From NCBI RefSeq assembly GCF_009914755.1, contig NC_060930.1: 64,000 bases of DNA. One strand, written 5' to 3'. Positions 14,414 to 20,300 of this stretch are shown here, one piece after another; within the stretch, counting starts at the first letter, position 1; each line of letters starts with the position of its first letter. The position numbers and the translations under genes are program-made. Below the pieces are notes generated by a model that was not told the DNA's origin, searched no databases, and saw only the letters and a program-made list of their open reading frames with translations. Source of the stretch: the human T2T-CHM13v2.0 reference genome, Homo sapiens.

Positions 14414-14703
14414 TATAAGATTACAAATGAAACCCTTTACATTAAAATACAACTATCAAAATATTTAAACAAACCAAAAGTGTCCCATAGTAATATATGT
14501 GCTTCTTTGCATTAAATAACAAAATCTGTGACAGGCTTAAAGAGTATCATAATTTCTACATAGAAATAATGTAGAGGTTTACATATTTGTATCTGATCTG
14601 AACTGTAAGATATATAAAAATAGCTGTGGGTCTCAGTTCCTCTGGGAAGGTAAGAGCCTAACTCTGGTGGGCAAGTGGGCACCTTGCTCCAGTTTGCAAT
14701 AAT

Positions 14704-15515
14704 TGCCTTTCTAATTTCATGGACATTAGATGCCACATGGATGAAAGAGGCAAACACCATATCCACATCCCATTCTACCCCAAACTTCAGATCCTGGATG
14801 TCCTTTTCTGACATGGCAAGCAGGTCCACAGTCACCAGGAAGGTCTACACCCTTTTTGCTGCCCAAGGAGCCATAATTTTCCATTGCTATCACCAGGAGG
14901 TCAGTACCTTTCTGCTCCAACTGCAGAGAAATAAGTTATTAAATCTATAGATCTTGCTGCCCCTTTCCACTACCTTACAAATGTTCTTGTAGTCCAGCTA
15001 CAGGAAGTTCTCATCATAAGTTTTCCATGTAGGCATTATCCAGTGTGATCTGAAGGTGGCTCCCTTCTTCAGCTCCACCTCCATGGGGACACTGCTCTGT
15101 GTGAGCCCAGTTCAGATCTCAGGCCCGTTAGTGTCCAGAGCCACAGCAACTAGCCGCTAGAGATTGGGGTCAGAAGCAAGGCTTTCCATAGTTGTGCACA
15201 CATTCCTGATGGTCTCTGCGTGGTACTCGTAAGTTCAGACAAGCCATATTAATTCCAGACTTAATCATCAACATTTCCACCAATCAGGAAACTAGGCCGA
15301 TAGTACAGATGATGCCAGTGCTCTGGGCTGTGGGGGTGGCCAGTGAGTGTTCAGGCAGCACACATGCTACAGCAGTGTGTCAGCCACCACCGTGGGCAGC
15401 TGCTGAGTCTGAAATGAAGGCCCTCCTGGCTTCACTGTGGGGCTTCCACTTGGCTTCTGAGGTCTTTCAGCGTTTTCTGGCTCAGACTACTTGCAAATGC
15501 AGAGAGGTCAGGAGC
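14704..15515 (-). pseudogene. PKMP3: Pyruvate kinase M (PKM) processed pseudogene fragment: 5'UTR plus about codons 1-256 only
   Basis: Intronless PKM homology (KPHSEA..., [63 protein letters not shown]). Start ATG mutated to AAG (15449-15451), with frameshifts and deletions. Symbol from recalled annotation of this locus. Confidence 0.9.
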
Positions 15516-15789
15516 CTAGGGACATTCACTCCTGTCCATTATATATGTTTTATTTCCAGAATGTCTATTTGATTGTTTTCATGTCATCCAAATTATTTTT
15601 GATGGTCTTTTATTTCTGTATCATATACCAATGCCTTCCTTTATTTCTTTAAACATTTTAACATACTCATTTTATAATTTTTATTTAAAATTTCTGTATC
15701 TGAAGTCCTTGTGAGTCTGGTCTTGAGGTTTGAAGATTTTGCTAATTCTTATTCGTGCTGGCTCAGTTCCTTGCGTGTTTTGGATTTTT

Positions 15790-17365
15790 TTTTTTTTACT
15801 TTTAAATGTGTTTAAGTTGACATATAATTGTACATATTCATGGGGTACATACTGATGTTTCAATATATATAATGTATAGTCATCAGATCAGGGCAATTAG
15901 TACATCCACCATCTCAAACATTTATCATTTCTTTGTGTTAGGAACATTCAATATCCTCCTTCATGTTACCTGAAAGTATGTATTATTGTTAACTATAGTC
16001 ATCCCACAGTGGTGTAGAACACTAGAACTTATTCCTCCTACCCAGCTATAATTTTATATGCCTTTTTTTTTTTTTTGAGATGGAGTTTCGCTTTTGTTGC
16101 CCAGGCTGGAGTGTAGTGGCGCAATCTCGGCTCATGGCAACCTCCGCCTCCCGGGTTCAAGCGATTCTCCTGCCTCAGCCTCCCGAGTAGCTGGAATTAC
16201 AGGCATGCACCACCATGCCCAGTTAGTTTTTTGTATTTTTAGGAGAGACGGGGTTTCTCCATGTTGGTCAGTCTGGTCTTGAACTCCTGACCTCAGGTGA
16301 TCCGCCCACCTCGGCCTCCCAAAGTGCTGGGATTATAGGCATAAGCCACCACACCTGGCCTTAATTTTAAATCCTTTAACAAATCTCTCCCTACCTTCCC
16401 ATCTCCCATACCCCTGCTAATCTCTAGTATCCTTCGTTCTACATTTTACTTCTATGAGATCAACTTTTTTTTTTTTTTTTTTTGAGACAAAGTCTCACTC
16501 TTGTCCCCCTGGCTGGAGTACAATGGCGCAATCTTGGCTCACTGCAACCTCCGCCTCCTGGGTTCAAGCAATTCTCCTGCCTCAGCCTCTTGAGTAGCTG
16601 GGATTACAGGCACCCACCACCACATCCAGCTAATTTTCGTGTTTTTAGTAGAGACAGGGTTTCACCATGTTGGCCAGGCTGGTCTCGAACTCCTGACCTC
16701 AGGTGTTCTACCCACCTCGGCCTCCCAAAGTGCTGGGATTACAGGCGTGAGCCACCATGCCTGGCAAGATCAACTTTTTTTAGTTTCCACATGAGTGAGA
16801 ACATGTGGTGTTTAACTTTCTGTTCCTGGCTTATTTCACTTAACATAGTGTCTTCCAGTTCCATTCATGTTACTGCAAATGACATGATGTCATCTTTTTT
16901 ATGACTGAATAGTAGCCCATTGTGTATATATACACACCACATTTTCCATTTTTTTTCTTTTTGAGACAGGGTCTTGCTCTGTTGCTCAGGTTGGAGTGCA
17001 GTGGTGCTATCATGGCTCACTGCATGGCTCATTGCAGCCTCAATCTCCTGGGCTCAAGTGATCCTCCCACCTCAGCCTCCCAAGGAACTGGGACTACAGG
17101 CACACACTACTGTACTTAGCTAATTTTTTAAATTTTTCATAGAGATGGAATCTTTCTATGTTGCCCAGGCTGGTTTTGAACTCCTTGGCTCAAGCAATTC
17201 TCCTGCTTCAGCTTCTCAAAGTGCTGGGATTGCAAGTGTGAGTCACTGTGTCCAGCCTAAATTTTATTTACCCATTTATCTGTTGTTGGACACCTAGGAT
17301 GATTTCATATCTTAGCTATTGTGAATAGTGCTGCAATAAACATGGGGATGCAGATGACTCTTTGG
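15790..17365 (-). mobile_element. L1MA-type 3' end inside the retro-insert, interrupted by three minus-strand Alus (16063-16360, 16465-16765, 16949-17238)
   Basis: L1 3'UTR and ORF2-end antisense signatures (CCACATGAGTGAGAACATGTGG; GCTATTGTGAATAGTGCTGCAATAAAC). Confidence 0.8.
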
Positions 17366-20300
17366 AAAAAAAAATAGCTGTGCTTTCTATTGGTGACAAA
17401 CCCATAGATATTGCTAGTACTATTGTGGTGTACAGTTTACATTTGTTATTGAAAGAAATGCTAAATTTCAGTTAGTGTTTAGTAAAAGTATACATATTTT
17501 CCCCTGTCCAAGTTCATAGACTTCTTGAATTTTATCCATGGTTCTCTATGGGACAGTGGAATCCCAGGTAAAAAGGACTGAAGTGGAGGGAGAAAGTGGA
17601 GGAAGTCAAAGAACTGATAAACCAAATTGTATGGACATTGACATGTAAATATTAGAAATAGATATTACAGAATAGAGCCATGAACCTGGTCCCAAACTCT
17701 TCAAAATTAATAAGGGGCAGTAACCACAAAGTAAGAAAATGATAGCCTCGAAGTAAGACAAAAGGTGACAGGCCAAGTGGCCATGAACATGAAAAGATCA
17801 GGGGGTTTTACATAAAGATGGAGGAGTAATTGTTAAGAAGTGGCAGTAGGGAGGCCGGACACGGTGGCTCACGCCTGTAATCCCAGCACTTTGGGAGGCT
17901 GAGGCGGGCAGATCACTTGAGGCCAGGAGTTCAACACTAGCCTGGCCAACATGGTGAAACCTTGTCTCTACTAAAAGTATATAAATTAGGCTGGGCATGG
18001 TGTCTCACGCCTGTAATTGCAGCACTTTGGGAGGCAGAGGCAGGTGGATCGCTTGAGGTCAGGAGTTCAAGACCAGCCTAGCCAACATGGTGAAACCCCA
18101 TTTCTACTAAAAATACAAAAATTAGCTGGGCGTGGTGGCACACGCCTGTAATCCCAGCTACTTGGGATGCTAAGGCAGAGAATCGCTTGAACCTGGGAGG
18201 TGGAGGCTGCAGTGAGCCGAGAGCGTTCCACTGCACTCCAGCCTGGGCAACAGGGCAAGACTCCATCTCAAAAAAATAAAATAAAATAAAAAATAAATAA
18301 AAATACATACATTGGCTGGGTGTGGTGACATGCATCTGTAATCCCAGCTACTAGGGAGGCTGAGGCATAAGAATCGCTTGAACCTGGGAGCCGGACGTTG
18401 CAGTGAGCCGAGATTGTGACACTGCCCTCCAGCCTGGGTGACAGAGTGAGACTCTGTCTCAAAAAAAAAAAAAAAAAAGTGGCAGTACGGAGCAAGGAAG
18501 ATACTAACCTTAACTTCATACCTGAGGGAGGAAGCAAGCTGCAGCAAGAGAAAGCAGTACCCTAAGGAAGGAAGAATCAGATTTTAATTAGGGCAAGGAC
18601 GTGGAAGAAATGCATGCACCCAAAAAAAATGGTGGAGGATATAGGGGTAGTTTCTTATCCCTGTAGACTGTGCAATGGAAGGATTGAGAGAGAGAGGGCC
18701 ATGTTGGGGGGTAGTGTAGACTAGAATGGCTGCAAATGGATATGAGAGGATAGATTACCAGAGAGGTTTAATTTTTTAATGGTAATATAAACCCACTAGC
18801 TAGAGATTATTCTACTGTCCAGAGATAACCAGTGTACCATTAAACATTTGGACTATTTATTGCTATAAACTTTGTCATCAGGATAAAATTAAAGGCAACC
18901 TAAATTTCTAAAATTGATTAAATAACCGTTTAATATCTACAAAAATAAAATGCAGCCAGGCGCAGTGGCTCACACCTGTAATTGTAGCACTTTGGGAGGC
19001 CAAGGCAGGTGGATCACTTGAGGTCAGGAGTTCGAGACCAGTCTGGCCAACATGGTGAAACCCCATTTCTACTAAAAATACAAAAATTAGCTGGGCGTGG
19101 TAGTGCGCACTGCAGCCTGGGCAACCAAGTGAGACTCTGTCTCAAAAAAAAAAAATTAAAAAATAATCCAGGCACAGTGGCTCATGCCTGTAATCCCAGC
19201 ACTTTGGGAGGCCAAGGTAGGCAGATCTCAAGGTCAAAAGATTGAGACTATCCTGGCCAACATAGTGAAACCCTGTCTCTACCAAAAATACAAAAATTAG
19301 CTGGGCATAGTGGCGCGTGCCTGTAGTCCCAGCTACTCGGGAAGCTGAGACAGGAGAATTGCTTGAACCCGGGAGGTACAGGTTGCAGTGAGCCGAGATC
19401 GCGCCACTGCACTCCAGCCTGGCAACAGAGTGAGACTCTGTCTCAAAAAAAAAAAAAAAAAAGAATAAAAAAAAATGCTCTCAATATTGCCAATGAAAAG
19501 AATGAGTAGAATTTTTAATAATGTTGAAAATTGTCATGATAGAAATTAAATGAGCTGGGTGTGGTGGCCCTCGCCTGTAGTCCGATTTATTGGGGAGGTT
19601 GAAGCCAAGAATTGCTTGAACACTGGAGTTCGAGGCCAGCCTGGGTTACATAGCAAGATCCTGTGTCTAAAATAAATAAATATTTTTTAAAAAAGAATAT
19701 TAAATGAAAGGAATCAGGATGACAAACTGTATATAATTCAAATTTTATTAAAATTTATATCTGCATAGAATAATACATCAAAAATTGTATAACAGTTACC
19801 TCTGAGTGGTGGGATTATAGGTTATTTTAATCTTCATATCTTCCTTATTTTTACATTTCATATCTTTTATATATCTTTTTATAATTTTTGTAGGTTAAAA
19901 AATAGAGCCTTTAGGAAATTAGATACAGTCAAACACCTCAAAACCTCATGTCTAAAAATTGAAAGTGTATACTTTACTTACTCTAGAGGTATGTGTTCTC
20001 CAGAATAATTTTTTATTGAAGTTAAAATTTGATAAATAATTTAAATACCAAGAAAATGGTTAACAGAAAACTGTGTAGGACACAGTTTCTCTTATTTGGA
20101 TTTCACTGGATCTCTCAAGCTTAATAGGTTGTATTTATTCTTTATTTTTGAGACAGGGTCTTGCTCTGTTGCCCAGGCTAGGATGCAGTGGCACACACAC
20201 AGCTCACTGCAGCGTTGACCTCCTGGACTTCTCGCGCCTCAGCCTCCCAAGTAGCTGGGACCACAGACTTGTGTTACCATGCTTGGCTAATTTTTAAAAT

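What the first reader, a model, noticed from the sequence alone, without database searches (positions are those of the whole stretch)
14616..17382. The PKM pseudogene is a passenger in a retrocopy of an antisense, polyadenylated RNA (second-generation retroposition)
Seen: a perfect 13-bp TSD (AAAAATAGCTGTG, 14616-14628 and 17370-17382) brackets 2.75 kb that splits an otherwise colinear hAT element. The A-tail is at the right end (17366-17374), 25 nt after AATAAA (17335-17340), so the copied RNA was plus-strand. Its PKM and L1M cargo are both minus-strand. The PKM part keeps its 5'UTR and lacks the 3' half and its own poly(A), the opposite of a normal 5'-truncated retrocopy. Established: the GCAATAAAC hexamer in antisense L1 corresponds to the L1 antisense polyadenylation site. 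Inference: this is a fossil of an RNA transcribed antisense across a different, older processed PKM pseudogene and terminated in the neighbouring L1, not a direct copy of PKM mRNA.
Basis: partly seen in the sequence, partly recalled or inferred. Interest (0 to 1): 0.85.

Follow-up and report, generated by a model that had tools for sequence, protein, structure and literature searches.

The report
Retrocopy of an antisense RNA carrying PKM
PKMP3 is most likely not a direct copy of PKM mRNA but part of a reverse-transcribed copy of an old non-coding RNA that ran backwards across an earlier, now missing, PKM pseudogene and ended inside a LINE-1; it is a neat molecular fossil made by a well-known mechanism.

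Summary
An exact 13-bp repeat (14616-14628 and 17370-17382) brackets a 2.74-kb insert. Three paralogous copies of the host repeat run straight across the site with one copy of the motif. The insert ends in A's 25 nt after AATAAA, and the target site reads TTTTT/AT on the bottom strand. So a plus-strand polyadenylated RNA was copied by LINE-1 machinery.

Its cargo is minus-strand:
- The PKM mRNA from its cap site to the middle of one exon.
- An old repeat.
- A LINE-1 3' end with its own tail, later or earlier hit by three Alus.

New here:
- 76 nt at the 5' end are not PKM.
- They join antisense PKM within 2 nt of the best cryptic splice acceptor on that strand (1 of 176 AGs). The RNA was probably spliced.
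- The PKM part is about 16-19% diverged, yet the repeat is perfect. The insertion therefore looks younger than the cDNA.

Against:
- No source locus exists in open CHM13; none of the four other PKM pseudogenes shares a flank.
- Outgroup genomes could not be examined.

The parts
14616..14628 (+). Left target-site duplication AAAAATAGCTGTG. The base before it is T, so the bottom strand reads TTTTT/AT at the first nick.
14629..14704 (+). Leader 'Y': 76 nt, not PKM. Inferred to be an upstream exon of the copied RNA. Its only other genomic match is chr14:61839654-61839727 (81% over 69 nt).
14705..15540 (-). PKM cDNA, from the mRNA 5' end to mid-exon, intronless. It is antisense to the copied RNA. 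The start codon reads AAG. RefSeq annotates it as PKMP3, 14706-15535.
15541..15784 (.). 'X': an old interspersed repeat. It has 7 weak paralogous matches (70-84% identity, none full length). Family and strand were not established.
15785..15797 (-). T13 on the + strand, which is the poly(A) tail of the minus-strand LINE-1 fragment.
15798..17365 (-). LINE-1 3' end (end of ORF2 plus 3' UTR), minus strand. It lies in four pieces: 15798-16062, 16361-16469, 16766-16949 and 17258-17365.
16063..16360 (-). Alu 1, with its own imperfect flanking repeat.
16470..16765 (-). Alu 2, with its own perfect flanking repeat AGATCAACTTTTTTT.
16950..17257 (-). Alu 3, the most decayed of the three. No flanking repeat was found.
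17335..17340 (+). AATAAA on the antisense strand of the LINE-1, 25 nt before the end of LINE-1 homology.
17366..17369 (+). Four A's that belong neither to the LINE-1 nor to the TSD: the remnant of the poly(A) tail.
17370..17382 (+). Right target-site duplication.

Best explanation
An ancestral locus, not found today, held a processed PKM pseudogene next to an old repeat and a LINE-1 3' fragment, all in one orientation.

A Pol II transcript ran across them on the opposite strand. An upstream exon (Y) was spliced to a cryptic acceptor inside antisense PKM. The terminal exon ran through the pseudogene's 5' half, the old repeat and the LINE-1. The RNA was cleaved and polyadenylated about 25 nt after an AATAAA on the LINE-1 antisense strand.

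LINE-1 proteins then copied this RNA in trans by target-primed reverse transcription at a TTTTT/AT site inside an older repeat. That gave the 13-bp duplication and the A tail.

Shown: the insertion, its orientation, its contents and the junction positions.

Inferred: the splice, the source locus, and when the three Alus arrived.
For: - The exact TSD occurs only at the two ends.
- The host repeat is colinear, with a single motif, in 3 paralogs.
- The A's, the AATAAA 25 nt upstream and the T-rich nick site all fit a plus-strand template.
- The LINE-1 is minus-strand, and so is PKM.
- PKM reaches the same 5' end as three classical PKM retrocopies. It stops inside an exon, with no tail.
- Of 176 AG dinucleotides on the antisense strand of the 2,308-nt PKM cDNA, one has 16 of 16 pyrimidines at -20 to -5 plus YAG. 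It lies 2 nt from the Y/PKM junction. The chance of falling within 2 nt of it is about 5 in 2,308.
- Y is not PKM-derived.
- PKMP3 differs from the parent at 19.1% of sites, or 16.3% outside CpG. A perfect 13/13 TSD gives an upper 95% bound of about 0.115 changes per site since insertion. At 0.13-0.18 changes per site it would survive in only 0.9-3.4% of cases.
- The 25-mer around the AATAAA occurs 4,265 times in the genome. A closely related 20-nt motif (one degenerate base) followed by A9 at 16-28 nt occurs only 3 times, this locus included. So the A run is not LINE-1 sequence.
- LINE-1 minus strands supply about twice as many human poly(A) sites as plus strands (PMC2553571, passages).
Against: - No source locus was found. 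Searches with the insert, with X, with Y and with Y plus PKM found no second place joining any two of these parts. Closed regions are not shown.
- Only 4 A's are unambiguously tail.
- The acceptor coincidence was noticed after the fact. It is off by 1-2 nt and rests on a simple pyrimidine count, not a trained splice model.
- The TSD age argument uses 26 A/T-rich sites and a reader who may have noticed the repeat because it is perfect.
- 0 of 97 listed chr1 copies of the LINE-1 motif lie at an annotated gene 3' end (gene-level ends only, low power).
- Two other loci with this motif followed by A's showed no TSD within 1.5 kb.
Confidence: 0.62

Rival explanations
1. Two-RNA event at the insertion site. 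A plus-strand transcript ending in antisense LINE-1 (X, T13, LINE-1, tail) was reverse-transcribed from the first nick. The second nick, or a template jump, primed on a real PKM mRNA internally and ran to its cap. That would give an inverted PKM 5' half, as in twin priming, with Y as filler. No PKM pseudogene ancestor is needed.
For: - An inverted arm that keeps the 5' end and lacks the 3' half and tail is what twin priming produces (my recall of Ostertag and Kazazian 2001; not held).
- PKM reaches the exact mRNA start.
- No older PKM pseudogene with these flanks exists.
Against: - It still needs a lost source for X plus the LINE-1.
- It needs two templates plus 76 nt of unrelated filler.
- There is no complementarity between the 3' end of Y or of the TSD and PKM mRNA at the start point (read).
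- It does not explain why the start point sits 2 nt from the best antisense acceptor.
- It predicts that the PKM divergence equals the insertion age, which the perfect TSD disfavours.
Confidence: 0.14
2. DNA-level capture. A genomic fragment from a now-lost locus was pasted into a staggered break. The 13-bp overhangs were filled in, and no RNA intermediate was involved.
For: - The mosaic content looks like ordinary genomic DNA.
- The tail is very short.
Against: - The right end falls 25 nt after AATAAA and is followed by non-templated A's.
- The target has a LINE-1 endonuclease-type site in the matching orientation.
- The Y/PKM junction lies at an acceptor-like site.
All three would have to be coincidences.
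Confidence: 0.1
3. Separate nested insertions at this site (a PKM retrocopy, an old repeat, a LINE-1), with the 13-bp repeat belonging to only one of them or arising by chance.
For: The LINE-1 piece has its own T13 tail, and two Alus have their own flanking repeats. So nesting does occur here.
Against: - No flanking repeats or tail for the PKM piece, and none for the LINE-1 within the insert.
- The host repeat resumes exactly after the second TSD copy.
- A minus-strand event would need a nick at GCTGTG/C and a tail at 14629, and neither is seen.
Confidence: 0.04

Closest known systems
Processed pseudogenes and retrocopies made in trans by LINE-1 (target-primed reverse transcription)
   Same: A 13-bp TSD, a T-rich nick site, a 3' A run after a poly(A) signal, and no introns in the PKM part. 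PKMP2 is a classical example in the same gene family: sense orientation, AATAAA, a tail, and a TSD AAAG(G)CTGGAAGG.
   Different: The template was not the PKM mRNA. PKM lies antisense to the tail, keeps its 5' end and lacks its 3' end. No parent locus is known.
[quoted passage not shown]
   Same: The copied RNA ends 25 nt after an AATAAA on the LINE-1 minus strand.
   Different: Here the evidence is a DNA fossil, not a transcript. That this hexamer is a preferred site was not verified.
Twin-priming inversions and template-switch chimeric retrocopies (Ostertag and Kazazian 2001; Buzdin 2002 and 2003; seen only as entries in the reference list of PMC4859970)
   Same: A mosaic insert inside one TSD, including an inverted 5' segment.
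   Different: There is no sense-strand 3' arm of the same RNA. Both cargo parts are antisense to the tail. There are 76 nt of unrelated leader.
Composite retrotransposed RNAs built by splicing into repeats (SVA and LAVA exon trapping, PMC4859970, passages)
   Same: An upstream exon spliced into repeat-derived sequence, and the product then retrotransposed.
   Different: A single copy, not an amplifying family.
Orphan retrocopies whose parent is lost (my recall; no paper seen)
   Same: The copy survives and the source does not.
   Different: The lost parent would be a non-coding locus containing a pseudogene.

Membership tests
LINE-1-mediated retrocopy (TPRT in trans) | Target-site duplication of about 7-20 bp flanking the whole insert | tested here: met
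   An exact 13-bp repeat. The motif is single in 3 paralogous host copies.
LINE-1-mediated retrocopy (TPRT in trans) | Poly(A) tail at the 3' end, downstream of a poly(A) signal | tested here: met
   AATAAA at 17335-17340. LINE-1 homology ends at 17365, and A's follow. Only 4 of the 9 lie outside the TSD, so this is weakly met.
LINE-1-mediated retrocopy (TPRT in trans) | T-rich endonuclease site on the primed strand, in the orientation of the tail | tested here: met
   The bottom strand reads TTTTT/AT at 14615/14616. The consensus itself is recalled.
LINE-1-mediated retrocopy (TPRT in trans) | An identifiable parent locus | tested here: not met
   No second locus joins Y, PKM, X or the LINE-1 junction. 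Closed regions are not visible.
Direct processed pseudogene of PKM mRNA | Sense orientation relative to the tail and TSD, with the mRNA 3' end and its poly(A) | tested here: not met
   PKM is antisense to the tail and stops inside an exon at chr15:70025413.
Direct processed pseudogene of PKM mRNA | Intronless copy of the mRNA | tested here: met
   Five exon blocks abut in the window, plus exon 1 by alignment with the other pseudogenes.
Twin-priming inversion | An inverted 5' segment and a sense 3' segment of the same RNA | tested here: not met
   No sense-strand PKM is present anywhere in the insert.
Template-switch chimeric retrocopy | Both parts in the same sense as the tail, with the 3' part being a LINE-1, Alu or mRNA 3' end | tested here: not met
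   PKM and the LINE-1 are both antisense to the tail.
Spliced RNA template | An exon-exon junction at a splice-site-like position of the template strand | tested here: inconclusive
   The junction is 2 nt from the top-ranked acceptor-like site among 176 AGs. The intron and the donor cannot be seen without the source.
   Only colinearity was shown, and a count of 114 first-look candidates for the 431-nt right-flank query as a whole.

The most novel reading that the evidence does not exclude
PKMP3 would be the only surviving record of two lost things. One is an older PKM processed pseudogene. The other is a spliced, germline-expressed non-coding RNA transcribed antisense across it and ended by an antisense LINE-1 poly(A) site.

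If so, some annotated 'pseudogenes' that lack a tail and keep a 5' end are passengers in retrocopies of other RNAs. Their divergence from the parent gene would then overstate the age of the insertion.
Probability: 0.55. Interest if true: 0.45.

Novelty: new member of a known kind. Interest (0 to 1): 0.35.

Why it matters
- It corrects the reading of one annotated pseudogene. PKMP3 should not be modelled or dated as a direct PKM retrocopy.
- It shows how a retrocopy can preserve a transcript structure (exon junction, poly(A) site) and a pseudogene that no longer exist elsewhere in the genome.
- If such passengers are common, pseudogene censuses and age estimates that assume direct descent from the parent mRNA would be biased.
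- The mechanism itself, LINE-1 copying any polyadenylated RNA, is well known. The value lies in annotation and as a worked example, not in a new principle.

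Tried and rejected
Source-locus hunt:
- Genome searches used the left 1.4 kb of the insert, X, Y and Y plus PKM.
- PKMP4 was compared directly.
- No locus shares a flank.
- The chr14 match to Y lies within the span of ARG2. It has only Alus nearby, its homology stops 6 nt before the Y/PKM junction, and no GT follows. 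I take it for a paralogous old repeat, not the source.

Y as displaced PKM sequence: rejected. Local alignment to the cDNA and to the 34-kb gene is no better than shuffles.

Minus-strand models (LINE-1 3' transduction, or a sense PKM chimera spliced from a weak donor): rejected. There is no tail or signal at 14629, and the nick site would be GCTGTG/C.

Internal priming on the purine-rich stretch of PKM mRNA: rejected. PKM homology stops before that stretch.

Identity of X:
- Pfam and PDB were blank for its one open piece.
- A related copy, L020, lies about 0.9 kb from LINE-1 ORF2 coding sequence. The spacing does not fit a contiguous element, and a neighbouring ORF gave nothing.
- Family and strand are left open.

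Other blanks:
- Pfam was blank for the LINE-1 ORF pieces. One of two PDB searches gave the ORF2p match.
- An A12 version of the motif-plus-tail pattern found nothing, not even this locus, which has A9.
- The two other loci showed no TSD within 1.5 kb.
- 0 of 97 chr1 motif sites lie at gene ends.

Dating the LINE-1 piece from its best genomic matches (80-85% identity) was dropped. The 40 rows scored are the best of 4,221 candidates, so they are biased.

Literature:
- PKMP3 appears in 10 papers. By title and abstract these are expression signatures or unrelated uses of the name (listing only).
- Exact-phrase searches for retrocopies of retrocopies or of lncRNAs found 0 papers.
- 'Major antisense polyadenylation' found 0.
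- Six phrasings of 'antisense polyadenylation signal/site' found 6 papers. I looked at passages of 2, and neither was about this LINE-1 site.
- These are phrase searches of an open-access library and cannot show that the idea is not in print.
- Supplements were not consulted. Supplementary Figure 3 of PMC2553571 may show where the LINE-1 minus-strand sites lie.

Full report
1. THE OBSERVATION

The 13-mer AAAAATAGCTGTG occurs exactly twice in the window, at 14616-14628 and 17370-17382.

The flanks belong to one interspersed repeat. I searched the genome with the right flank and fetched 9 related loci (L038-L046). In 3 independent ones the left and right flanks of the window match adjacent, same-strand stretches, with the spacing expected for an empty site:
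- chr16 L043: 91 nt against 92 expected. L042 is its duplicate.
- chr12 L046: 107 against 102.
- chr14 L040: 81 against 96.
In the other 5 loci only the right flank matched nearby. In the alignment each paralog carries the motif once, where the window carries it twice. This is a true target-site duplication around a 2,741-bp insert (14629-17369). I did not test whether the host is a hAT element.

2. ANATOMY OF THE INSERT, READ ON THE + STRAND

- 14629-14704, 'Y', 76 nt. This is not PKM. The three full-length PKM pseudogenes and the parent exon all diverge from the window at 14704/14705. Local alignment of Y to the PKM cDNA and to the 34-kb gene is no better than shuffles. Its only other genomic match is chr14:61839654-61839727 (81% over 69 nt), within the span of ARG2.
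- 14705 to about 15540, PKM cDNA on the minus strand. Five exon blocks abut without introns, and the first exon is recognisable through the other pseudogenes. The 5' end coincides with that of PKMP1, PKMP5 and PKMP2 and with the annotated gene start, chr15:70047883. The other end, chr15:70025413, is inside an exon that continues to 70025346. The start codon reads AAG.
- 15541-15784, 'X'. An old repeat with 7 weak partial matches elsewhere (70-84% identity). Pfam and PDB gave nothing. By recall its minus-strand reading resembles the start of a LINE-1 ORF1, but no tool confirmed this.
- 15785-15797, T13.
- 15798-17365, a LINE-1 3' end on the minus strand. The reading of 16790-16864 matches ORF2p residues 1248-1272 (E 0.02; the four best PDB hits are all ORF2p). 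A second piece gave no hit, and Pfam was blank. Three minus-strand Alus interrupt it. Two have their own flanking repeats.
- AATAAA at 17335-17340. LINE-1 homology ends at 17365, and three other copies run on past that point.
- Four A's (17366-17369), then the second TSD copy, which itself begins with five A's.

3. WHICH STRAND WAS COPIED

Three things fit a plus-strand template: the A's lie at the right end, the TSD begins with A's preceded by T (bottom strand TTTTT/AT), and a poly(A) signal sits 25 nt upstream. A minus-strand template would need a tail at 14629 and a nick at GCTGTG/C, and neither is there.

The A run is not LINE-1 sequence. The 25-mer around the AATAAA occurs 4,265 times in the genome. 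A closely related 20-nt motif followed by A9 within 16-28 nt occurs only 3 times, this locus included.

PKMP2 is a control for a classical PKM retrocopy. It is in sense orientation, ends about 17 nt after its AATAAA, has a degenerate tail and carries a TSD AAAG(G)CTGGAAGG.

4. A NEW CLUE: THE Y/PKM JUNCTION

I rebuilt an approximate PKM cDNA from the parent exons. It is correct through the region used and inexact at two late junctions. I then scanned its antisense strand.
- Of 176 AG dinucleotides in 2,308 nt, one has 16 of 16 pyrimidines at positions -20 to -5, a pyrimidine at -3 and no AG just upstream.
- That site lies 2 nt from where PKM homology begins in the window. It would be 1 nt if the G shared with PKMP1 is counted.
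- A random breakpoint would fall within 2 nt of it about 5 times in 2,308.
- The same place read in the sense direction is only a weak donor-like site.

I read Y as an upstream exon spliced to a cryptic acceptor in antisense PKM. An antisense RNA of an intronless PKM sequence can only come from a DNA copy of the cDNA, that is, from a pseudogene. Three caveats apply: the test was thought of after seeing the sequence, the score is a simple count, and the intron cannot be seen.

5. AGE

Difference from the parent cDNA:

| Pseudogene | All sites | Outside parental CpG |
|---|---|---|
| PKMP3 | 19.1% | 16.3% |
| PKMP1 | 7.4% | 5.0% |
| PKMP5 | 9.8% | 7.3% |
| PKMP2 | 12.1% | 9.4% |

In a maximum-likelihood tree the PKMP3 branch is 0.18 + 0.05 changes per site. 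The other three form an unresolved star with the parent. PKMP3 is therefore the oldest, and it is not a copy of any extant PKM pseudogene.

The two TSD copies are identical at 13 of 13 positions. With d changes per site since insertion the chance of that is about exp(-26d). That equals 5% at d = 0.115 and 0.9-3.4% at d = 0.13-0.18. The insertion therefore looks younger than the PKM cDNA, as a second-generation copy predicts and a direct copy does not. The support is modest: the sample is 26 A/T-rich sites, and perfect repeats are the ones that get noticed.

6. THE MISSING SOURCE

The only places in open CHM13 that resemble the PKM 5' half are this locus, PKMP1, PKMP5, PKMP2 and the parent gene.
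- PKMP4 holds only the last two exons, is 93-96% identical to the parent, and shares nothing but Alus with the insert.
- No locus joins X to a LINE-1 tail or to PKM.
- A source at 70% identity or more over the 1.4-kb query would have outscored the PKM pseudogenes that were found.

I weigh it less, because a neutral locus of this age can be deleted, and because every rival also needs a lost source for X plus the LINE-1.

7. RIVALS

- A two-RNA event (twin priming or a template jump onto real PKM mRNA) explains the retained 5' end and needs no PKM pseudogene. It still needs two templates, 76 nt of filler and a lost source. It leaves the acceptor coincidence and the TSD age signal unexplained (0.14).
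- DNA capture would make the AATAAA spacing, the A's, the nick site and the junction all coincidences (0.10).
- Nested independent insertions lack any TSD or tail for the parts (0.04).

8. WHAT IS KNOWN

- LINE-1 copies cellular polyadenylated RNAs in trans, and chimeric and spliced templates are documented (review PMC4859970, passages).
- LINE-1 is the repeat family most often associated with human poly(A) sites. Its minus strand supplies about twice as many as its plus strand (PMC2553571, passages).
- I recall that Wheelan et al. 2005 named a major antisense poly(A) site in LINE-1. That paper is not held, and I could not check whether it is this hexamer.
- Phrase searches for retrocopies of retrocopies, of lncRNAs or of antisense transcripts found no paper. 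This shows little.
- The 10 papers that mention PKMP3 are, by their listings, expression signatures or unrelated.

9. VERDICT

It remains unproven for want of a source locus and of outgroup genomes. It is a new member of a known kind, and interest is modest (0.35).

Noticed in passing
window 14200-14417: A high-copy interspersed repeat (1,538 first-look candidates, 74-80% identity) ends at about 14417, just before the host repeat begins. By recall it looks like the end of a Tigger-type DNA transposon; this was not tested.
   Followed up: no
L049 1500-1565 (chr4:104272760-104272809) and L048 1500-1555 (chr2:167861364-167861413): These are the only two other places in the genome where the LINE-1 antisense AATAAA motif is followed by A9 or more within 16-28 nt. 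They may be further retrocopies of RNAs ended at this site. No TSD was found within 1.5 kb upstream.
   Followed up: partly
L026 1501-1574 (chr14:61839654-61839727): The only genomic relative of the 76-nt leader Y (81% over 69 nt), within the span of ARG2. It may be a very low-copy old repeat.
   Followed up: partly
window 17011-17034: A 12-nt tandem duplication (CATGGCTCACTG / CATGGCTCATTG) inside the oldest Alu.
   Followed up: no
L013/L014, chr15:70025344-70025346: The PKM intron after the 271-nt exon starts with GC, not GT. This stopped my first exon-joining script.
   Followed up: yes
L042 and L043 (chr16:18.58 Mb and 16.72 Mb): Two copies of the host-type repeat gave identical match statistics in opposite orientation. 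This looks like an inverted segmental duplication on chr16.
   Followed up: no
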